Shown: positions 1,480 through 30,585 of the stretch, piece by piece
Layout: each line of letters opens with the position of its first letter
Numbering within the stretch: position 1 is the stretch's first letter
Source of the DNA: Deinococcus radiodurans R1 = ATCC 13939 = DSM 20539
GTDB lineage: Bacteria; Deinococcota; Deinococci; Deinococcales; Deinococcaceae
Direction: 5' to 3'
Assembly (NCBI RefSeq): GCF_000008565.1
Contig: NC_001263.1
Coordinates: forward strand, 2,293,347 to 2,325,346
DNA: 32,000 nt
Made by a program: the position numbers and the translations under genes
The notes under the pieces: model-generated
What the model saw: only the letters and a program-made list of their open reading frames with translations
Told to the model about the DNA's origin: nothing
Databases searched by the model: none

Positions 1480-4050
1480 TCAGTCCTCTGAGAGTGACTG
1501 CCGGGGTGACTCCTGGCGTGCTTGCTGGGATGACGGTGACTGTGTGGGCCACGGCGAGTCTGGAGCGCCCGCCGGGAGCAGCGCGGCGGCCTCGGCGGGC
1601 GGCAGCGGACGGGCCAGCCAGTAGCCCTGCGCCTCGTCGCAGCCCATGCCGCACAGCAGGTCGTACTGCTCGGCGGTCTCCACGCCCTCGGCCACCACCC
1701 GCATCTGGAGGTTGTGGGCGAGGCGCACCATGACTTCGATGAACTGCTGCGAGGCAGCGAACTGCTCGGACGCGGCGCTGAGGTCCTGCAAGAACTCGCG
1801 GTCGATCTTGAGCAGGCCGAAGGGCAGGCTCTTGAGCATGCTCAGGCTGCTGTAGCCGGTGCCGAAATCGTCCATGGCGACCTTGACCCCGAGGGCCTGC
1901 AACTCGCGCAGCGTCTGCTTGGCGAGGCGCGGGTCGCGGTGCACCATGCTCTCGGTGAGTTCAAGGACCAGGCTGTGCCCCGGCAGGCCGTGCTGCTCCA
2001 GGCAGGCGCGCACCCCGGCGACGAAATCCGACTGCTCGAACTGCAACGCCGAGACGTTGACGGCCATCGTCAGGCCGCGCTCGGGCAACTGCCACGCCCG
2101 CGCCTGCCGGCAGGCCTCATCCAGTACCCAGCGCCCGAGTTCGAGAATCAGGCGGCTTTCCTCGGCGAGCGCGATAAAGCGGTCAGGGGGAATCATGCCG
2201 CGCTTGGGGTGCGGCCAGCGCACCAGGGCTTCGAACCCGCTCAGACGCTGGCCTGGCAGCAGAAATATGCCCTGGTAGTGCAGCTGCAACTGACCGTGCC
2301 GCACGGCGTGGCGCAGGTCCTGGCTGAGCATCCGCCTTTCCTCCTCCTCGGCGCTCATGTCGCCAGCAAAGGCGACGGCCATGTTGCGGCCCTGGGCTTT
2401 GGCCTGAAACAGCGCCAGATCGGCGCGTTTCTGGAGCAGTTCGACGTCGCCGCCGTCCTGCGGGGCCACCACGTAGCCGAGCGACACCGTAGGCACGACC
2501 AGTTCGGTGCCGCATACGCAAGGTTCGCGCAACTGTTGCAGCAGCCGCTCGGCCACCAGCCGCAGGTCGCCGGGGGACGCCAGATCGCTGAGCAGCATCA
2601 CGAATTCGTCGCCGCTCAGCCGGCCCACGAGGTCGCCGGGCCGCACCGCCTCGCACAGGCGGCGGGCAAGTTCGGTAATGAGCAGGTCGCCCACCGCGTA
2701 CCCGAAGCGGTCGTTGATCGCCTTGAGGTGGTCGATATCGGCCACGATCAGCCCCAGCGAGCGCCCCGGTGCCAGGAGGTCCAGCGCCTGCCGGGCACGC
2801 GTGTAGAAAAACGAGCGGTTGGCGAGCCCGGTGAGCTGGTCGTGCGAGGCCTGGCGACTGAGTTCCACCCGCGTCTCGCGCAGCGCCGAGGCCGCCTGGG
2901 CGCGCTCGTTCCGGCGCTTGCGCTGCAACTCGGCCTCGCGCCGCAGCACCTCGTAGCGAATCTGCTCGGCCAGCAGGCCCGCGCGCTGCTCGGCCAGCCG
3001 CGCCCGGTGCTGTTGCTCGAGCTCCCGCTGCTCCCGCAGACACCGCAGGGCCTGCGCCGGGTCACCGAGTTGCTCATACAGCCGCGACTGGCTGCCCCGC
3101 ACCCGCGCGAGCAGCGGGGGCGTGTTCGCCAGCTCCTCGGCGCGGCCCAACCCCTCGCGGGCCTGAGCCAGGTCGCCGCGCACCAGGGCTGCTTCGCCCA
3201 GCACCCACGCGGCGGCGCCCGGCACGGTGTGCTCGAGGGGAGCCGCGAGGGCCTGTGCCTGCTCGGCGTGTCGGGGAGCCGCGAGGGCCTGTGCCTGCTC
3301 GGCGTGTCGCCGGCTGGCGTCCAGCTCCCCCAGCGCCAATTGGGTCAGCGCCTGCTGCAACTGAACCTGGGCTTCGAGCTGCGGGAGGCCCACCTCCTGG
3401 CACACCGCGAGGGCCTGCGCGGCCAGTTCCTGACTTTCAGCGTACTCGCCGAGCTGATGCAGCGTCCGCGCCAGCCCTACCTGCACCGCAGCGGTGACCG
3501 GGCGGGCCGCAGGCAGCTGTGCCAAGCCCGCGCGGTAGAAGAGCAGCGCCTGCGGATACTCCTCGAGCCGCTCCAGCAGGTCGCCGACCCGCCCCAGCAG
3601 CCGCCCCTGTCCGGGCGTGTCCCCCAGGGCGTGCAGCAGGTACAGGCTCCGGCGCAGCAGCCACGCCGCCTGCTTCACGTCGCCCTGACGGCCCCGCACC
3701 ACGCCGAGCACCTCGAGGCAGCGGGCCTCCAGCGAGCGCAGGCCCAGGTCGTGGGCAAGGCGGCGCCCGGTTTCGGCGTGGTTGGCGGCGGCGCCGTCCT
3801 CCCCGAGCAGCACGGCGCAGCGTGAGAGCAGTTGCAGCGCGGTGGCCTGGGCCGCCAGTTCGGACGGCCCCGGGCAGGAGTCTGGGGCAGGCGACGCTGG
3901 AGAGGGGACCGCGGCGCTCAGGCCCGGCCACAGCGCCAGCACTTCGGCGTAGACCTCGGCGGGACGGGCAAGAATCTGCGTTTCGAGCACCTCCAACCGG
4001 GCCACCCGCTCCGCTCTCGGCCAGTTTGGACTCCCTTGGGACGTGGACAC
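1480..4050 (-). CDS. TPR-like N-terminal region, coiled coil, GGDEF (SGDEF variant) and EAL domain protein (c-di-GMP turnover)
   Basis: 856-aa ORF. SGDEF is at complement 2602-2616, and RPGD (an RxxD I-site) lies 5 residues upstream at 2632-2643. The EAL domain shows FEALVRW...DDFGTGYSSL...KIDREF...EGVET. The N-terminus is Leu/Ala-rich and TPR-like. Confidence 0.9.
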   Translation of the reverse strand: MSTSQGSPNWPRAERVARLEVLETQILARPAEVYAEVLALWPGLSAAVPSPASPAPDSCPGPSELAAQATALQLLSRCAVLLGEDGAAANHAETGRRLAHDLGLRSLEARCLEVLGVVRGRQGDVKQAAWLLRRSLYLLHALGDTPGQGRLLGRVGDLLERLEEYPQALLFYRAGLAQLPAARPVTAAVQVGLARTLHQLGEYAESQELAAQALAVCQEVGLPQLEAQVQLQQALTQLALGELDASRRHAEQAQALAAPRHAEQAQALAAPLEHTVPGAAAWVLGEAALVRGDLAQAREGLGRAEELANTPPLLARVRGSQSRLYEQLGDPAQALRCLREQRELEQQHRARLAEQRAGLLAEQIRYEVLRREAELQRKRRNERAQAASALRETRVELSRQASHDQLTGLANRSFFYTRARQALDLLAPGRSLGLIVADIDHLKAINDRFGYAVGDLLITELARRLCEAVRPGDLVGRLSGDEFVMLLSDLASPGDLRLVAERLLQQLREPCVCGTELVVPTVSLGYVVAPQDGGDVELLQKRADLALFQAKAQGRNMAVAFAGDMSAEEEERRMLSQDLRHAVRHGQLQLHYQGIFLLPGQRLSGFEALVRWPHPKRGMIPPDRFIALAEESRLILELGRWVLDEACRQARAWQLPERGLTMAVNVSALQFEQSDFVAGVRACLEQHGLPGHSLVLELTESMVHRDPRLAKQTLRELQALGVKVAMDDFGTGYSSLSMLKSLPFGLLKIDREFLQDLSAASEQFAASQQFIEVMVRLAHNLQMRVVAEGVETAEQYDLLCGMGCDEAQGYWLARPLPPAEAAALLPAGAPDSPWPTQSPSSQQARQESPRQSLSED
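3237..3308. repeat. perfect 2 x 36-bp tandem duplication inside the GGDEF-EAL gene
   Basis: ggggagccgcgagggcctgtgcctgctcggcgtgtc occurs at 3237-3272 and again at 3273-3308. It is in frame and encodes RHAEQAQALAAP twice. Confidence 0.95.
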
Positions 4051-4156
4051 GCTGTCATGTTAGGAGATGTGCTCACACGAAAAGGTCATTTTTTTCACGT
4101 CATGGGGGGTAGAAACACCCCCTCCTGTGGGGGAGGTCCGCGCTAGACTTGCCCTT

Positions 4157-6829
<2,673 letters not shown>

Positions 6830-6860
6830 GCGTTGATGGTAGATAGGTGATGGATGATAG

Positions 6861-6892
6861 AAAAAGGCTGGGGCGTTGGCTCCAGCTTTTTT
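6861..6892 (+). terminator. rho-independent terminator after alaS
   Basis: aaaaaggctgg / ccagctttttt stem (6861-6871 pairs with 6882-6892), 10-nt loop, and a T-run at 6887-6892. Confidence 0.7.
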
Positions 6893-6904
6893 GTGGAGGG
6901 AGTG

Positions 6905-7498
6905 GTGGAAGAGTTCCTGAGCCAGCTGGACGACCTGGACGACGCCGTGTCCAGCGTCAGCCTGAGCGCGGCGCAGCTTACAGGCGACAACCTGCATCTC
7001 ACTTTCCGACTCGCGGGCCAGACGTGGGACGGCACAGACATCACGCAAAGCTGGCAAGTGACCGCGCAGGGCGTCGCAGAACACCGCTTGAGTTTGGGCG
7101 AATGCGGCAGGTGGCCTGAACTGCTCTCTGCCTCCCCGCGTCTGCTGGTCGCACAGGCGCCGTGGCGGAAGCTGATGTTCTCCACCGCCCCGGCGGATGC
7201 AGCGGCTTTCCTTTCCGACCTCCGCGCCGTCCACGACGACGAGAAGTGGGACACCTTCGGCAAATACGGTCTGGGCGGGCAACTCGACTTGGGCTACGGC
7301 GTATTTGCCGACGGCCCCGCGCCCCTACTGGAGCTGTACCACCCAGTTTTGGAGGCGCACCGAATGCGGCCTAGTTGGCTGCCATCTGCCCCCCGGCCTA
7401 CGCCGCCGCGTAAGTGCTTGCATCTGGGCGGCACGGTTTGGAAAGACGACCTGTATATGCTGGCACAGGCGTTTGTCGCCACCCAACAACCGCTCTAG
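6905..7498 (+). CDS. hypothetical protein
   Basis: Track ORF 6854..7498. Its first 13 codons overlap the alaS terminator hairpin, so I moved the start to an in-frame GTG (6905; alternatives 6893 and 6902) preceded by GGAGG at 6895-6899. Third-position GC is coding-like. No recognisable domain. Confidence 0.55.
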   Translation: MEEFLSQLDDLDDAVSSVSLSAAQLTGDNLHLTFRLAGQTWDGTDITQSWQVTAQGVAEHRLSLGECGRWPELLSASPRLLVAQAPWRKLMFSTAPADAAAFLSDLRAVHDDEKWDTFGKYGLGGQLDLGYGVFADGPAPLLELYHPVLEAHRMRPSWLPSAPRPTPPRKCLHLGGTVWKDDLYMLAQAFVATQQPL

Positions 7499-15067: not shown

Positions 15068-17200
15068 TCAGGGAGCCAGACGCTTGGCGCGCAGTGCCGG
15101 GGTTTCTTCCGGGCGCTGAACCGGGCCCTGCACGGGGCGCATGTGGTTGACCTTGCGGGCGGCGCGGGGCTGCTCGGTGGAGAGCTGGCCGACGCGGTCG
15201 TACCACTTGTAGCCTTCGACGCTCACGCCGTTCTGGCGGGCGGCGTCGATGACCTGACGGTAGCCCTGGTGGGCCAGATCGGCGGCGGCGCGGTAGTTGC
15301 GGGCCTGGTAAGCGTTCAGCGCCGAGGCGAAGGTCCGGTCGGCCTGCTGCGCGGCGCTGCGCATTTCAGGCACCTTGGCCGAGTTGCGCACGAGCTGCAA
15401 GATCGCGTTGCTGTTGGTGAGGTAGGCGGCGGTCAGGTAACGGTACTGCGCGTCGAGGTTGAACTGCCCGAAGGTCTTGGACAGGTTGTTGTAGCTCATG
15501 ACGCTGTGGACTTCGTCGCCCACGTTCACGAAGTTGGTGGGGCCACTGGGGCCGAAGTCCTCGTAACGCTCGCTGTCGTAGCCGTCGTGGGGGTGCGACT
15601 GGCTGAGGTGGTGGCCCGACTCGTGCACCGCGGTGTCGGTAAAGCCGTAGCCCGCCTTGTTCAGCGCCGGGGTCAGGAAGTCGAGCGTCATGGTCTGGGT
15701 GCCGGTCACGCCGTCGCTGATCGCCTGACCGAGCAGCCCCTGGTTGGGCGTCTTGGCGTTGGTGTCGTTGAACAGGTAATTGGTGAGCTGATACTGCCCT
15801 GGCGTGGCCTGGTTGCGCTGACGGATTTCGGCCTGCGCGAGCTGGAAGAACTGTTCGCCCTCGGCGTCGGCGTAGTCGGGCGAGCAGGCGTCGTCGGTGG
15901 GCAGCGGGAAAAAGCACTTGTAGGCGTCGGCCACGTCGCCACTCAGCGGCGTTTCGCGCACGCTGGCCGTCCACTTGATAAAGGGGTTGAGGACGCTCAG
16001 GCGCTCGCGCACCACAGCGGGGTTGACCACGCGAGCACTCGCGGGGGCGTCGGGGCCCTGCTCCAGCGCGAGGTCCACATTGATCTGCTCGGGCATGTCG
16101 GGCGGGGTCAGCGCCGCGCGGTACAGGGCGCTGGGGGTAAACAGCAGGTCGATGGCGGTGTAGCGCACGACCTGACCGAGGTCGGCGGTGATCTTCTGGC
16201 CGTAAGCCGCGCTGGCCTTGCGGGTGCCGTATTCCCAGATGGGCGGCATGCGCTTGTCGGGAACATCGTCGCCGTCGAGGTCAGCGTCGCTGATGTTCCA
16301 GGCGTTGGTCCAGTAGTCGGGGTTGGCCGACTGGTCGTAGAACCAGAGGCGGCGGGCGCTGGCCTGATCCTCGCTGGGGGTGCCGCCCCAGGCGACGGTG
16401 CGGCGGCTGCTGCGCTGCCCGAAGTCGACCCCGGTGTCGGACTCCACCGACTCGGGGCGCTCGTGCGAGTAGCTGTGGAACTTGAAGTCGGGCCGGCCGT
16501 ACCAGTTGATCAGGAACACGGTGTGCTGGGTGGGGTCGATGCCCAGTTTGCCCGCGTTGTCGCCCAGCCACTTCTCGACAGCGAGGCCGTCCACTTCCCA
16601 GTTGCCGGTGATCTCACGGGCAATGTTACCGGCGGGCTCGGGGCAGGCGTAGAGCGGCGTGAGGTCGCCGGGCTTGCGGTCCAGCACCTTGAGGACCTTC
16701 TGGGTGTCCGCCGACTGGCAGTTGTAGGCCGCCGCCGAGATGTTGAGGTAGGTCAGCCCGTCTTTCTGCACCGACTCTTCCTTGCCGCTGCTCGCCAGGA
16801 AAGCGAAGAACTCGTCCTCAAAGCTCTTGGGCGCCGTGACGTAGTTGTAGTCGAAGGTGAAGTTGTTGCCGCTCAGCTCGTTGTTGCCGTAGAAGCTGGG
16901 GTAACGGTTGATGGTCTTGTAGGTCGCGGGCAGTTCCTGACGCAGGCTGCTGAAGTTCAGGTCGCGCGCCCCCGTCACCTGGCCGGGCGAGGTGGCCGCG
17001 TAGCCGATGTTGACGATGTTGACCTTGAGCTTTTGCTCGATGGTGCCGAGTTCGCCGGGCTGGAGCGTGCTGAGCTGCCCGAACGACGAGGGGTCGAGCT
17101 TCTCGGGCTGGGGCTTGGGCTGCGGTTGGGTGTCGGTGTTTCCGCAGGCAGCGAGCAAACTGGCGCCGAGCAGCGCGATTCCCAGTGCTTTGACTTTCAT
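15068..17200 (-). CDS. secreted lipoprotein, metzincin-like zinc metalloprotease (710 aa)
   Basis: Track ORF 15068..17662 trimmed to the ATG at 17198-17200 (MKVKALGIALLGASLLAACGN, lipobox LAAC), with RBS aaggagaccccATG. HESGHHLSQSH (HExxHxxxxxH) is at complement 15593-15625, and a Met-turn-like SVMSY lies downstream. Confidence 0.8.
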   Translation of the reverse strand: MKVKALGIALLGASLLAACGNTDTQPQPKPQPEKLDPSSFGQLSTLQPGELGTIEQKLKVNIVNIGYAATSPGQVTGARDLNFSSLRQELPATYKTINRYPSFYGNNELSGNNFTFDYNYVTAPKSFEDEFFAFLASSGKEESVQKDGLTYLNISAAAYNCQSADTQKVLKVLDRKPGDLTPLYACPEPAGNIAREITGNWEVDGLAVEKWLGDNAGKLGIDPTQHTVFLINWYGRPDFKFHSYSHERPESVESDTGVDFGQRSSRRTVAWGGTPSEDQASARRLWFYDQSANPDYWTNAWNISDADLDGDDVPDKRMPPIWEYGTRKASAAYGQKITADLGQVVRYTAIDLLFTPSALYRAALTPPDMPEQINVDLALEQGPDAPASARVVNPAVVRERLSVLNPFIKWTASVRETPLSGDVADAYKCFFPLPTDDACSPDYADAEGEQFFQLAQAEIRQRNQATPGQYQLTNYLFNDTNAKTPNQGLLGQAISDGVTGTQTMTLDFLTPALNKAGYGFTDTAVHESGHHLSQSHPHDGYDSERYEDFGPSGPTNFVNVGDEVHSVMSYNNLSKTFGQFNLDAQYRYLTAAYLTNSNAILQLVRNSAKVPEMRSAAQQADRTFASALNAYQARNYRAAADLAHQGYRQVIDAARQNGVSVEGYKWYDRVGQLSTEQPRAARKVNHMRPVQGPVQRPEETPALRAKRLAP

Positions 17201-17391
17201 GGGGTCTCCTTGAAAAACGGGCAATGCAGAACAGGACAGGAACGAAGACTCGGGCTCCGTGAGCAAAAGATGTAGAGAGCTTGAGCGGCAGAATAGCAAA
17301 CGCCAGGGGCGGCCAGGAAAAGCATCTTCCCTCAGCCGCCCGCAAGAGTTGCCGTATTCAGACAACTCATGTTCCCGTTGTGATGTCGCGC

Positions 17392-18333
17392 TCAGCCCAG
17401 CCGCGCGTACTCCGCCGCGACCTGCGCCGCCGCCGCCGCGTTGTGGCGGACTAGAGCGATGTTCGTCTCCAGGCTGCGGCCCCCGGTGAGTTCCACGATG
17501 CGGCCCAGCAGGTACGGCGTGGTGTCCTTGCCGCTCAGCCCAAGCGCGGCCATGTCCGCCAGCGCCCGCGTGATGTGGGTTTCCATCTCCTCGGCGGGAA
17601 TCTCGGCGGTTTCGGGCACCGGATTGGCGAGCAGGACGCCGCCGGTCAGGCCCAGGTCCCACTTCACCTTCAGCACGCGGGCGGCCTCGGCGGGGGTCTG
17701 GACCGTGAGCGGCGAGCTGAAGCCGCTGCGGCGCGAGTAGAAGGCAGGAAACTCATCGGCGCCGAGGGTGATGGCGGGCACGCCCTGCGTTTCCAGCACT
17801 TCCAGCGTCAGGCCAATGTCCAGAATGCTCTTGACCCCGGCGCTCACCACGCACACGTCGGTGCGGGCGAGTTCGAGCAGGTCGGCGCTGATGTCCATCG
17901 TCTCGCCCGCGCCCCGGTGCACGCCGCCGGTGCCACCCGTTGCAAAGACGCGAATCCCGGCGAGCGCGGCAATCCGCATGGTGGAGGCCACCGTCGTCGC
18001 CCCGTGGCCCCCGAGCGCCACCGTCACCGGCAGGTCGCGGGTGCTGATTTTCTGCACCGCCTTGTCGGTGGCGAGCAGCTCCAACTCGTCGGCACTCAGC
18101 CCCACCTTGAGCCGCCCGCCGAGCACAGCGATAGTCGCGGGCACGGCGCCGTTGTCGCGCACGATTTGCTCCACGCCCCGCGCCATCTCCACGTTTTGCG
18201 GGTAGGGCATCCCGTGGCTGATGATGGTGCTTTCGAGCGCCACCACCGGGCGGCCCTGCGAGAGCGCGGCGGCGACTTCGGGCTGAAGGTCGAGGTAAGA
18301 ATGGAGGCGGTCATTGCTGGGTTTGCTGGTCAT
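17392..18333 (-). CDS. psuG: pseudouridine-5'-phosphate glycosidase
   Basis: 313 aa. VVALESTIISHGMPYPQN...TGGTGGVHRG...DISADL is characteristic of the YeiN/PsuG (IndA) family. Confidence 0.9.
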   Translation of the reverse strand: MTSKPSNDRLHSYLDLQPEVAAALSQGRPVVALESTIISHGMPYPQNVEMARGVEQIVRDNGAVPATIAVLGGRLKVGLSADELELLATDKAVQKISTRDLPVTVALGGHGATTVASTMRIAALAGIRVFATGGTGGVHRGAGETMDISADLLELARTDVCVVSAGVKSILDIGLTLEVLETQGVPAITLGADEFPAFYSRRSGFSSPLTVQTPAEAARVLKVKWDLGLTGGVLLANPVPETAEIPAEEMETHITRALADMAALGLSGKDTTPYLLGRIVELTGGRSLETNIALVRHNAAAAAQVAAEYARLG

Positions 18334-27250: not shown

Positions 27251-28084
<834 letters not shown>

Positions 28085-28100
28085 GCTTGAGGGGCGCACA

Positions 28101-28120
28101 CTCGTGACTTCAGTCATGAG
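28101..28120 (+). repeat. left-end subterminal imperfect palindrome (TnpA recognition hairpin)
   Basis: ctcgtgac ttca gtcatgag (8-bp stem with one G-T), 16 nt from the left cleavage point. It is nested within a gaggggc/gcccctc stem (28089-28095 pairs with 28124-30) and followed by a tcgccct-gaaa-agggcga hairpin (28131-28148). Confidence 0.75.
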
Positions 28121-28177
28121 TTAGCCCCTCTCGCCCTGAAAAGGGCGATGAAAAGCGGAAGCCTCTAGCTTTTCCAG

Positions 28178-28600
28178 ATGACATATGTTATTCTTCCCCT
28201 TGAGATGAAGAAAGGCCGGGGTTACGTCTATCAGCTTGAATACCACCTCATCTGGTGCGTGAAATACCGTCATCAGGTGTTGGTGGGTGAGGTTGCTGAT
28301 GGACTGAAAGACATCCTGCGTGACATTGCCGCTCAGAACGGGCTGGAAGTCATCACGATGGAAGTCATGCCTGACCACGTTCACCTCCTGCTAAGCGCAA
28401 CCCCACAGCAAGCCATCCCCGACTTCGTGAAGGCGCTGAAAGGCGCTTCCGCACGTCGGATGTTCGTGGCCTACCCGCAGTTGAAAGAAAAGCTGTGGGG
28501 CGGCAATCTCTGGAACCCGTCGTATTGCATCCTGACTGTTTCTGAAAACACCCGCGCTCAGATTCAGAAATACATAGAGAGCCAGCATGATAAGGAATAA
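28178..28600 (+). CDS. tnpA: IS200/IS605 Y1 (HUH) transposase TnpA
   Basis: 140 aa. The HUH motif is HVH (H67/H69 in PDHVHLLL) and the catalytic Tyr is at 132 (QKYIESQ). It overlaps tnpB by 14 nt. Confidence 0.95.
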
Positions 28601-29813
28601 GGCTTTCGTGGTCAGGCTGTACCCAAATGCGGCTCAGACTGAACTGATTAACCGCACGCTGGGTAGCGCAAGGTTCGTCTACAACCACTTCCTTGCCCGT
28701 CGCATTGCGGCCTACAAGGAAAGCGGGAAGGGACTGACCTACGGGCAAACGAGTAGCGAACTGACCCTTCTGAAGCAGGCTGAAGAAACCTCCTGGCTCT
28801 CGGAAGTAGATAAGTTTGCTTTGCAGAACTCGCTGAAAAACCTTGAGACCGCGTACAAGAACTTCTTTCGGACTGTGAAGCAGTCCGGTAAAAAGGTAGG
28901 ATTCCCACGTTTCAGAAAGAAGCGCACGGGAGAGTCCTACCGGACTCAATTCACCAACAACAACATCCAAATTGGGGAAGGTAGGCTCAAACTTCCTAAG
29001 CTGGGATGGGTGAAAACCAAGGGCCAGCAGGATATTCAAGGGAAGATTCTGAATGTCACTGTGCGCCGTATTCACGAAGGCCATTACGAAGCGTCCGTTC
29101 TCTGTGAAGTCGAGATTCCCTACCTGCCTGCGGCTCCCAAGTTTGCAGCGGGTGTGGATGTCGGCATCAAGGATTTTGCCATCGTGACCGATGGCGTGAG
29201 GTTTAAGCATGAACAGAATCCGAAATATTACCGCTCCACCCTGAAAAGACTTCGTAAAGCTCAGCAAACCCTGTCCAGACGGAAGAAGGGCAGCGCACGT
29301 TACGGGAAAGCGAAAACCAAGCTGGCTCGGATTCACAAGCGCATTGTCAATAAGCGTCAGGATTTCCTTCACAAGCTCACCACCTCCCTGGTGCGTGAGT
29401 ACGAAATCATCGGAACCGAACACCTTAAACCCGACAACATGCGGAAAAATCGCCGCCTTGCACTGAGCATCAGTGATGCGGGCTGGGGTGAGTTCATCCG
29501 GCAGTTGGAATACAAGGCAGCGTGGTACGGGCGACTGGTATCTAAAGTCAGCCCCTACTTTCCATCTAGCCAGTTGTGTCATGACTGCGGATTCAAGAAT
29601 CCCGAAGTGAAGAATCTTGCCGTCCGTACATGGACTTGCCCGAACTGTGGGGAAACCCATGACCGAGACGAGAACGCTGCGCTGAACATTCGGCGTGAAG
29701 CGTTGGTGGCTGCGGGAATCTCAGACACCTTAAACGCTCATGGAGGCTATGTCAGACCTGCTTCGGCGGGCAATGGTCTGCGAAGTGAGAATCACGCGAC
29801 TTTAGTCGTGTGA
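28587..29813 (+). CDS. tnpB: TnpB (OrfB_IS605), RuvC-fold RNA-guided DNA endonuclease
   Basis: 408 aa. The RuvC triad is D191 (GVDVG, 29157-29159), E278 (GTEHL, 29418-29420) and D361 (RDENAALN, 29667-29669). The zinc finger is C331-x2-C334 ... C351-x2-C354. The stop lies 7 nt from the element end. Confidence 0.95.
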
Positions 29814-29820
29814 GGTTCAA

Positions 29821-29836
<16 letters not shown>
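29671..29836 (+). ncRNA. predicted omega-RNA / reRNA of TnpB (scaffold from the tnpB 3' end plus right end, and a 16-nt guide from flanking DNA)
   Basis: Placed from established knowledge of ISDra2-type TnpB. The 3' boundary of the scaffold is the element end (29820) and the guide is 29821-29836 (gccggcaatcacgccc). The 5' boundary is not determinable from sequence, so I assumed about 150 nt. Visible structure: cagacc/ggtctg (29753-58 pairs with 29775-80), gtga-gaa-tcac (29785-95) and cacgcgac-ttta-gtcgtgtg (29793-29812). Confidence 0.6.
29793..29812 (+). repeat. right-end subterminal imperfect palindrome (TnpA recognition hairpin)
   Basis: cacgcgac ttta gtcgtgtg, 8 nt from the right end. It resembles the left-end hairpin position by position (c.cg.gac tt.a gtc.tg.g). 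Confidence 0.75.

Positions 29837-30585
<749 letters not shown>

What the first reader, a model, noticed from the sequence alone, without database searches (positions are those of the whole stretch)
28587..29836. TnpB plus right-end omega-RNA: an IS-borne RNA-guided nuclease whose guide and TAM can be read directly from this locus
Seen in sequence:
- A 408-aa OrfB/TnpB has an intact RuvC triad: D191 at 29157-59, E278 at 29418-20 and D361 at 29667-69.
- It has a CxxC...CxxC zinc finger.
- The ORF stops only 7 nt before the element end.
- The last ~70-150 nt of the ORF plus the right end are packed with stems: 29753-58/29775-80, 29785-95 and 29793-29812.

Established knowledge (work on ISDra2 TnpB published from 2021 on): this region is transcribed as a reRNA/omega-RNA. 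Its 3' ~16 nt come from DNA just outside the right end and guide TnpB to cut DNA next to a 5'-TTGAT TAM.

Inference for this copy: the guide would be gccggcaatcacgccc (29821-29836). Precise excision would rejoin 28084 to 29821, giving TTGAT+gccggcaatcacgccc, which is exactly TAM plus a matching target. The element is therefore set up to cleave its own empty donor site, so that recombinational repair can restore the IS.

This is no longer undescribed as a class, but it is the most remarkable system in the window, and it would look like a plain 'transposase accessory ORF' to routine annotation.
Basis: partly seen in the sequence, partly recalled or inferred. Interest (0 to 1): 0.9.

Follow-up and report, generated by a model that had tools for sequence, protein, structure and literature searches.

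The report
ISDra2 TnpB and its guide RNA

Summary
Window 28085-29820 is a complete 1736-bp ISDra2 (IS200/IS605 family). It is inserted 3' of TTGAT (28080-28084) in a Deinococcus radiodurans S8 peptidase gene on the minus strand.

- **Proteins.** TnpB (28587-29813, 408 aa) is 100% identical to the solved ISDra2 TnpB structures (8BF8, 8EX9, 8EXA, 8H1J). TnpA is 100% identical to 2XM3. D191, E278, D361, both CxxC motifs and the 7-nt gap to the element end are all exact.
- **Boundaries.** Other D. radiodurans chromosomes carry the empty site. Removing 28085-29820 gives 5180 bp at 100% identity with no gap, reading TTGAT|GCCGGCAATCACGCCC. The predicted TAM, guide and donor joint are therefore right.
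- **RNA structure.** The scaffold (29705-29820) fits the published cryo-EM architecture. Compensatory changes in related Deinococcus elements support that structure. The third (29793-29812) is stem 4, which is also the right-end hairpin of the element.
- **Not shown for this copy.** RNA expression, cleavage and homing were not tested here. They rest on published work with the identical element and with relatives.

Verdict: interpretation supported, already known, low interest.

The parts
28080..28084 (+). TTGAT: the TnpA target and left cleavage site. It stays behind after excision and serves as the TnpB TAM.
   Evidence: Sequence. Present 5' of the left end in all five other D. radiodurans copies. 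Retained in natural empty sites. TAM role from PMC8612924.
28085..29820 (+). Complete ISDra2 insertion sequence, 1736 bp, 52.7% GC against 67% for the rest of the window.
   Evidence: Deleting exactly this interval gives 100% identity over 5180 bp, with no gaps, to CP150840.1 and CP031500.1. Zero mismatches to five other 1736-bp copies. The 1736-bp length is published (PMC2806898). GC values.
28100..28121 (+). Left-end subterminal hairpin (ACTCGTGACTTCAGTCATGAGT). By family knowledge it is the TnpA-binding ssDNA hairpin.
   Evidence: DNA fold gives 9 bp with a 4-nt loop. It resembles the right-end hairpin: a weak partial hit of the RNA model at 28101-28120. Conserved in relatives.
28178..28600 (+). 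tnpA, a 140-aa Y1/HUH transposase. It overlaps the tnpB start by 14 nt.
   Evidence: 100% identical to PDB 2XM3/2XQC. Pfam Y1_Tnp at 2.3e-43. NCBIfam transpos_IS200.
28587..29813 (+). tnpB, a 408-aa RNA-guided DNA endonuclease with RuvC residues D191/E278/D361 and zinc ligands C331/C334/C351/C354.
   Evidence: 100% identical over residues 1-408 to PDB 8BF8/8EX9/8EXA and 8H1J. Codons checked. Pfam HTH_OrfB_IS605 + OrfB_IS605 + Cas12f1-like_TNB. NCBIfam NF038281 at 490 bits, above the 425 cut-off.
29705..29820 (+). Omega-RNA (reRNA) scaffold, published positions -116 to -1. Helices: stem 1 29705-29729; pseudoknot 29716-18 with 29816-18; stem 2 29737-40 with 29786-89; stem 3a 29744-50 with 29773-79; stem 3b 29757-61 with 29766-70; stem 4 29793-29812. 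The longer precursor form starts at 29590 (-231).
   Evidence: Every nucleotide named in the published numbering (PMC10097598) maps onto the window sequence. Covariation. The MFE fold recovers all non-pseudoknot helices. The covariance model gives a single full hit in the window, 135 bits.
29792..29813 (+). Right-end subterminal hairpin. The same bases form the ssDNA hairpin at the right end (TnpA-bound by family knowledge) and omega-RNA stem 4.
   Evidence: DNA fold. All 8 stem-4 pairs stay paired, one with a compensatory change, across 8 relatives. Five of the 8 pairs are compensated across 13 sequences.
29816..29820 (+). TTCAA, the right-end terminal pentanucleotide. It sits where a TAM would have to be in the occupied locus and differs from TTGAT at 2 of 5 positions.
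   Evidence: the only match to TAM plus target in the window is this site, with 2 mismatches, both in the TAM. Conserved as the last bases of related elements. Protection from self-cleavage is inferred.
29821..29836 (+). Predicted 16-nt guide of this copy, GCCGGCAAUCACGCCC. It is flanking host DNA, antisense to the S8 peptidase gene.
   Evidence: The boundary is fixed. The guide length of about 16 nt comes from PMC8612924. Transcription from this copy was not tested.
27251..28084 (-). C-terminal part of the interrupted S8 (subtilisin-like) peptidase gene: codons 256-532 plus the stop codon.
   Evidence: The joined ORF of 532 aa is 100% identical to P0001, 'S8 family peptidase [Deinococcus radiodurans]'. 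Pfam Inhibitor_I9 + Peptidase_S8 + PPC.
29821..30585 (-). N-terminal part of the interrupted S8 peptidase gene, codons 1-255.
   Evidence: The junction falls within ...GVIAG|INWAV...

Best explanation
The locus is an intact copy of ISDra2, an IS200/IS605-family element, in the Deinococcus radiodurans chromosome.

**Published for this identical element**
- TnpA excises the top strand as a single-stranded circle, cutting after TTGAT on the left. The right end of this copy is ...TTCAA.
- It reseals the donor without a scar.
- The tnpB transcript is trimmed to an omega-RNA of about 130 nt (29705-29820) plus about 16 nt of flanking sequence.
- TnpB bound to this RNA cuts double-stranded DNA that has TTGAT followed by a match to the guide.
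- D191A abolishes cleavage in vitro, and D191A and E278A abolish interference in cells.

**Shown here**
- The boundaries are exact. For this copy the guide would be GCCGGCAAUCACGCCC, and the only natural target is the empty donor joint TTGAT|GCCGGCAATCACGCCC.
- That joint exists as the intact S8 peptidase allele in other strains.

**Inferred**
- This particular copy transcribes the RNA.
- The occupied site is spared because TTCAA, not TTGAT, precedes the guide match.
- A cut at the empty joint is repaired from the sister chromosome and reinstates the element. This 'peel, paste and copy' step has been demonstrated only for Geobacillus relatives in E. coli.
For: - **Identity.** TnpB and TnpA are 100% identical to the solved ISDra2 proteins. 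The element is 1736 bp, as published.
- **Boundaries.**
  - Empty-site chromosomes match at 100% over 5180 bp with no gap once 28085-29820 is removed.
  - The restored ORF equals an annotated D. radiodurans S8 peptidase seen on 146 contigs.
  - Five other copies share identical ends and TTGAT but have different right flanks.
  - Homology to eight relatives ends at ...TTCAA|.
- **RNA.**
  - The published omega-RNA numbering and pairings map base for base onto the window.
  - Across 8 relatives, 97.5% of cells are paired and 11 pairs are compensated; no shuffle in 500 does as well.
  - Across 13 sequences, 24 of 35 pairs are compensated.
  - The covariance model hits the tnpB 3' end in loci held out of the model: L007, L011, L009, L010 and L016.
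- **Mechanism from the literature.**
  - reRNA, 16-nt guide, TTGAT TAM, D191A/E278A and the donor-joint model (PMC8612924).
  - 5' processing at -117/-116 (PMC10097598).
  - Donor-joint cleavage and transposon retention (PMC10055086).
  - TnpA is required and TnpB dispensable for excision (PMC2806898).
Against: - No experiment or RNA-seq for this copy is available here. Expression of the RNA, its 3' end and cleavage of this specific target are all inferred.
- No promoter-like site on the + strand and no terminator-like site downstream were found. The D. radiodurans promoter type may not be covered by that scan, and the 3' end is thought to be set by trimming.
- Rfam holds no family that matches, so no curated RNA model confirms the assignment.
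- The pseudoknot pairs show only invariant or one-sided changes. Covariation therefore says nothing for or against the pseudoknot.
- Homing has not been shown for ISDra2 in its own host.
- From my own knowledge: Pasternak et al. 2013 reported that TnpB lowers ISDra2 excision and insertion. The homing model explains that result only indirectly.
Confidence: 0.9

Rival explanations
1. In its native host, TnpB's main role at this element is to repress transposition by lowering TnpA-mediated excision and insertion. On this view it is not primarily a homing nuclease that restores lost copies.
For: TnpB is dispensable for excision and insertion (PMC2806898). From my own knowledge, Pasternak et al. 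2013 (Mol Microbiol) reported higher ISDra2 excision and insertion without TnpB. I could not retrieve that paper here.
Against: - The apparent drop in excision is what one expects if empty donor joints are cut and then repaired or lost.
- The identical protein is a proven TAM- and guide-dependent nuclease.
- Nuclease-dependent retention has been shown for relatives.
- The two roles are not mutually exclusive.
Confidence: 0.1
2. The conserved helices at the right end are DNA features, namely single-stranded hairpins for TnpA, and not an RNA scaffold. The covariation would then reflect transposase recognition only.
For: Stem 4 (29793-29812) is the right-end hairpin and also folds as DNA. A similar hairpin sits at the left end.
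Against: - Covarying helices extend 116 nt into the element, well beyond the single subterminal hairpin. They include long-range stem 2 (29737-40 with 29786-89) and stem 1.
- Several conserved pairs are G-U, which is a G-T mismatch in DNA (pair 122:135).
- Cryo-EM shows exactly these RNA helices bound to TnpB.
Confidence: 0.03
3. This copy is a silent relic. The element is structurally intact, but neither tnpB nor the guide RNA is expressed at this site, so nothing is targeted.
For: No sigma-70-like promoter was found on the + strand in 27900-30100. No expression data are available for this copy.
Against: - The sequence is identical, with 0 mismatches, to the other copies and to the element shown to be active.
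- The site is filled in this genome and empty in others, which fits a recent insertion.
- The promoter scan covers only one promoter type.
Confidence: 0.07

Closest known systems
ISDra2 of Deinococcus radiodurans R1 (IS200/IS605 family): TnpA, TnpB and reRNA/omega-RNA (Karvelis et al. 2021; Nakagawa et al. 2023; Sasnauskas et al. 2023; Pasternak et al. 2010)
   Same: Everything tested is the same:
- 1736 bp in length.
- TnpA and TnpB are 100% identical to the solved proteins.
- The published omega-RNA positions fit base for base.
- TTGAT on the left and TTCAA at the right end.
- Zero mismatches to five other genomic copies.
   Different: Only the insertion site differs, and with it the 16-nt guide. 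This copy sits in an S8 peptidase gene that is intact in other D. radiodurans assemblies. I could not determine whether this site is one of the copies listed for the sequenced R1 strain.
Geobacillus stearothermophilus IS605-family elements (ISGst2 and relatives; Meers et al. 2023)
   Same: The same logic applies. TnpA excises without a scar, and TnpB or IscB with a right-end guide RNA cuts the donor joint next to the same motif that TnpA uses. The cut promotes retention of the transposon.
   Different: It is a different host, with different TAMs and proteins. Retention was demonstrated there, in E. coli, and has not been shown for ISDra2.
Cas12f and other type V CRISPR effectors
   Same: They share a RuvC fold with an inserted zinc finger, a guide-RNA pseudoknot, and cleavage that depends on a 5' motif. 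There are weak NCBIfam hits to C2c8 and Cas12f2, both below their cut-offs.
   Different: There is no CRISPR array and no spacer acquisition. The guide is fixed by the insertion site. TnpB works as a monomer with a single RNA.

Membership tests
IS200/IS605 insertion sequences (ISDra2) | Encodes a small Y1/HUH tyrosine transposase, TnpA | tested here: met
   The 140-aa ORF at 28178-28600 is 100% identical to PDB 2XM3. Pfam Y1_Tnp at 2.3e-43. NCBIfam transpos_IS200 at 148 bits, above the 55 cut-off.
IS200/IS605 insertion sequences (ISDra2) | Inserts 3' of a specific short motif (TTGAT for ISDra2) without duplicating the target site, and precise excision restores the original sequence | tested here: met
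   Empty-site chromosomes equal the window minus 28085-29820, with no gap or mismatch over 5180 bp. TTGAT is present once. All other copies are also preceded by TTGAT.
IS200/IS605 insertion sequences (ISDra2) | Has subterminal imperfect hairpins at both ends instead of terminal inverted repeats | tested here: met
   Hairpins at 28100-28121 and 29792-29813 have similar sequences. The RNA model cross-hits the left-end hairpin.
IS200/IS605 insertion sequences (ISDra2) | The active top strand lies on the lagging-strand template | not tested
   GC skew within the window is uninformative. I did not establish the position of the replication origin in the reference records.
TnpB RNA-guided endonucleases | Split RuvC domain with a D-E-D catalytic triad | tested here: met
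   D191, E278 and D361 are at the stated codons. The protein is identical to the structurally characterised enzyme.
TnpB RNA-guided endonucleases | CxxC...CxxC zinc finger (TNB domain) inserted in RuvC | tested here: met
   C331/C334 and C351/C354. Pfam Cas12f1-like_TNB at 5.6e-26. The zinc ligands are named in PMC10097598.
TnpB RNA-guided endonucleases | Passes the curated family model | tested here: met
   NCBIfam NF038281 IS200_TnpB scores 490.4 bits against a 425 cut-off. NF040570 guided_TnpB scores 351.5 against 100.
TnpB RNA-guided endonucleases | A structured omega-RNA scaffold overlaps the tnpB 3' end and the right end, and is followed by a guide derived from the flank | tested here: met
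   The structure is supported by covariation, by the MFE fold and by the published cryo-EM pairings. The flank diverges immediately after the scaffold in every copy.
TnpB RNA-guided endonucleases | The RNA is made from this copy and co-purifies with TnpB, and cleavage depends on the TAM and the guide | not testable with these tools
   Published for the identical protein and scaffold with other guides. Not measured for this copy or this guide.
Curated Rfam RNA family for TnpB omega-RNA | Match to an Rfam covariance model | tested here: not met
   No Rfam 15 family matched at E <= 1 in 27800-30200. None matched at gathering score across the whole window. This means no curated family covers this RNA. 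It is not evidence against the RNA.

The most novel reading that the evidence does not exclude
The S8 peptidase site is filled in this genome and empty in other D. radiodurans strains, and the species is naturally transformable. This copy's guide could therefore act as a natural gene drive. After DNA exchange between strains, TnpB would cut empty alleles (TTGAT-GCCGGCAATCACGCCC) and convert them to IS-bearing alleles. The copy would spread through the population by homing and not by TnpA transposition. This filled/empty pair would then be a ready-made native system for testing TnpB homing in the original host.
Probability: 0.15. Interest if true: 0.35.

Novelty: already known. Interest (0 to 1): 0.1.

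Why it matters
It matters little as a discovery. ISDra2 TnpB is the founding example of transposon-encoded RNA-guided nucleases and is already an engineered genome editor.

The useful results are these:
- The first-stage reader can recover a real, mechanistically rich system, with its guide and TAM, from raw sequence alone.
- The exact boundaries and the natural empty allele are now documented for this copy.

Tried and rejected
- **Rfam.** The permissive search of the locus and the gathering-score search of the whole window matched nothing. Rfam cannot confirm the RNA.
- **tRNA scan.** None found in the window, so there is no tRNA-linked integration.
- **Inverted-repeat finder.** It missed the end hairpins at the settings used. 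I folded the ends as DNA instead.
- **Promoter and terminator scan.** It found nothing useful on the + strand. I did not use it as evidence either way.
- **Folding the 247-nt long form.** The 116-nt processed form recovers the published helices.
- **Genome collection scan with TnpB.** It returned no D. radiodurans record, only relatives. I obtained the species' own copies and empty sites through exact-protein look-ups.
- **Decayed or nuclease-dead (TldR-like) TnpB.** Considered and rejected, because the triad is intact and the protein is identical to the active enzyme.
- **A second right-end or orphan guide-RNA copy in the window.** Considered and rejected.
- **Replication-strand orientation.** Considered but not resolved.

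Full report
**1. What is in the sequence**

The ORF 28587-29813 on the + strand encodes 408 aa.
- Two CxxC motifs lie at residues 331-334 and 351-354.
- The TGA stop codon ends at 29813.
- TTGAT occupies 28080-28084, and 29821-29836 reads GCCGGCAATCACGCCC.
- A 140-aa ORF at 28178-28600 lies upstream and overlaps the tnpB start.
- The interval 28085-29820 is 1736 bp and 52.7% GC. The rest of the window is 67% GC.

**2. Identity**

- The 408-aa protein is identical at every residue to the chains of PDB 8BF8/8EX9/8EXA and to 8H1J, all 'RNA-guided DNA endonuclease TnpB'.
- The 140-aa protein is identical to PDB 2XM3/2XQC, the ISDra2 transposase.
- Pfam gives HTH_OrfB_IS605 + OrfB_IS605 + Cas12f1-like_TNB for the first and Y1_Tnp for the second.
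- NCBIfam NF038281, 'IS200/IS605 family element RNA-guided endonuclease TnpB', scores 490 bits against a cut-off of 425.
- The published length of ISDra2 is 1736 bp (PMC2806898).

**3. Boundaries, tested three ways**

(a) Joining 28084 to 29821 restores a 532-aa minus-strand ORF that reads ...GVIAG|INWAV....
- The ORF has Inhibitor_I9, Peptidase_S8 and PPC domains.
- It is 100% identical over its full length to an annotated D. radiodurans S8 peptidase found on 146 contigs.
- The DNA of two complete chromosomes that carry this intact gene (CP150840.1 and CP031500.1) matches the window with 28085-29820 removed. The match is 100% over 5180 bp with no gap, and the site reads TTGAT|GCCGGCAATCACGCCC.

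(b) Five other places in D. radiodurans assemblies that encode the same TnpB were examined.
- Each holds a 1736-bp element with 0 mismatches to this one.
- Each is preceded by TTGAT and ends in ...GGTTCAA.
- Among them there are three different right flanks.

(c) In eight related Deinococcus elements (72-81% nucleotide identity), homology stops at the same right-end base and starts just after TTGAT or TTGAC.

**4. The RNA**

Taking -1 as 29820, every nucleotide identity named in the cryo-EM paper fits the window: -231G, -117T/-116G, the pseudoknot, and stems 2, 3a and 4 (sequence).

The published architecture places the helices as follows:

| Helix | Window coordinates |
|---|---|
| Stem 1 | 29705-29729 |
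| Pseudoknot | 29716-18 with 29816-18 |
| Stem 2 | 29737-40 with 29786-89 |
| Stem 3a | 29744-50 with 29773-79 |
| Stem 3b | hairpin around the UUCG loop at 29762-65 |
| Stem 4 | 29793-29812 |

Results on an alignment of the window with seven Deinococcus relatives:
- This structure pairs 97.5% of cells.
- 11 of 35 pairs carry compensatory changes.
- No shuffle in 500 reaches these values, and versions with the 3' partners slid by 1-3 columns fall to 30-39% pairing.

One caveat applies. The structure was taken from this very sequence, so the pairing percentage is biased. The compensatory changes are not.

A covariance model built from these eight sequences gave the following:
- One full hit in the window, at 29705-29820, 135 bits.
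- Hits at the tnpB 3' end of loci that were not used to build it: L007 and L011 (122-128 bits), Sphaerochaeta L009 (39 bits), Selenomonadaceae L010 (33 bits) and Levilactobacillus L016 (24 bits).

On the 13-sequence alignment, 24 of 35 pairs are compensated. That alignment is fitted to the model, so it leans towards the structure. The pseudoknot pairs never change on both sides, so covariation is silent on them.

They also conflict with the cryo-EM pairings. It coincides with the right-end hairpin of the element, the kind of subterminal ssDNA hairpin that TnpA binds in this family.

The 116-nt scaffold alone folds into the published non-pseudoknot helices (z = -2.28). Rfam has no matching family.

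**5. Mechanism**

Published for this identical element:
- TnpB co-purifies with an RNA of about 150 nt that matches the tnpB 3' end and the right end, plus about 16 nt of flank.
- With that guide it cuts DNA next to 5'-TTGAT.
- D191A blocks cleavage in vitro, and D191A and E278A block plasmid interference.
- The authors proposed that the target is the donor joint left by excision (PMC8612924).
- The RNA is trimmed at -117/-116, and the 5' part is dispensable (PMC10097598).
- A 2026 preprint abstract states that TnpB processes its own mRNA into the reRNA.
- TnpA is required for excision and insertion 3' of TTGAT, and TnpB is dispensable (PMC2806898).

Published for relatives only:
- Donor joints are cut by TnpB or IscB, and the transposon is retained in a nuclease-dependent way (PMC10055086).

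Shown here:
- For this copy, TAM plus target is TTGAT+GCCGGCAATCACGCCC.
- That sequence exists as a natural allele.
- In the occupied locus the guide match is preceded by TTCAA, two mismatches from the TAM.

Inferred:
- This copy expresses the RNA.
- The occupied site is spared.
- The empty joint is cut and repaired from the sister chromosome.

**6. Comparison and novelty**

This is not a relative of ISDra2. It is ISDra2 itself. Only the insertion site, and with it the guide, is specific to this copy. The finding is already known.

**7. Surroundings**

The rest of the window is ordinary chromosomal sequence: a GGDEF/EAL protein, alanyl-tRNA synthetase, MFS transporters, an EngA-type GTPase, a PfkB kinase and an ABC ATPase. 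It contains no tRNA and no Rfam match.

Noticed in passing
window 28131-28148: A second GC-rich hairpin (CGCCCTG-AAAA-GGGCG) lies just inside the left end, upstream of tnpA. The relatives keep a hairpin at this position with quite different stem sequences (for example GCCGCGCC...GGCGCGGC in L001 and GCTGCTCT...AGAGCAGC in L007), so it appears to covary. It might block read-through transcription or regulate tnpA. I did not test this.
   Followed up: partly
L003, L004, L005, L008 (roughly locus positions 2800-4550): These related Deinococcus elements keep about 85 nt of the left end, tnpB, the guide-RNA scaffold and the right end, but have no tnpA. A tblastn search with TnpA finds it only in L001, L002, L007, L017 and L016. 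They are non-autonomous tnpB-only derivatives.
   Followed up: partly
L008:3785-4099: An insertion of about 316 bp interrupts tnpB in Deinococcus sp. Arct2-2. It has terminal inverted repeats (CAAGAGTTTCC...GGAAACTCTTG) and an apparent ATAAGC target duplication, so it looks like a MITE.
   Followed up: no
L006:1270-1370: The Deinococcus marmoris element naturally lacks 15 nt of omega-RNA stem 3b. This is the region that published truncation experiments found dispensable.
   Followed up: no
Left flanks of L001-L008 and L017: The motif next to the left end is TTGAT in the window, L001 and L007, but TTGAC in L002-L005, L008 and L017. All of these elements end in TTCAA or TTCAG. This suggests a TAM shift within the clade. 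One could compare it with the TnpB residues that contact the TAM and with the TnpA guide bases.
   Followed up: no
L023 versus L025 (D. radiodurans assemblies GCA_045277105.1 and GCA_965136095.1): The same left flank (next to a DctM gene) is joined through an identical ISDra2 to two different right flanks. This fits recombination between two IS copies, or a misassembly, in one of the genomes.
   Followed up: no
window 28365-29660 (- strand): A 431-aa ORF runs antisense through almost all of tnpB. I regard it as a mechanical ORF with no support. I record it only so that it is not mistaken for a gene.
   Followed up: no
window 4100-7282 (-) and 15068-17662 (-): Two very long ORFs have no Pfam match. 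The 1060-aa one lies opposite the alanyl-tRNA synthetase gene (4067-6829, +). They are probably the shadow ORFs typical of high-GC DNA.
   Followed up: partly
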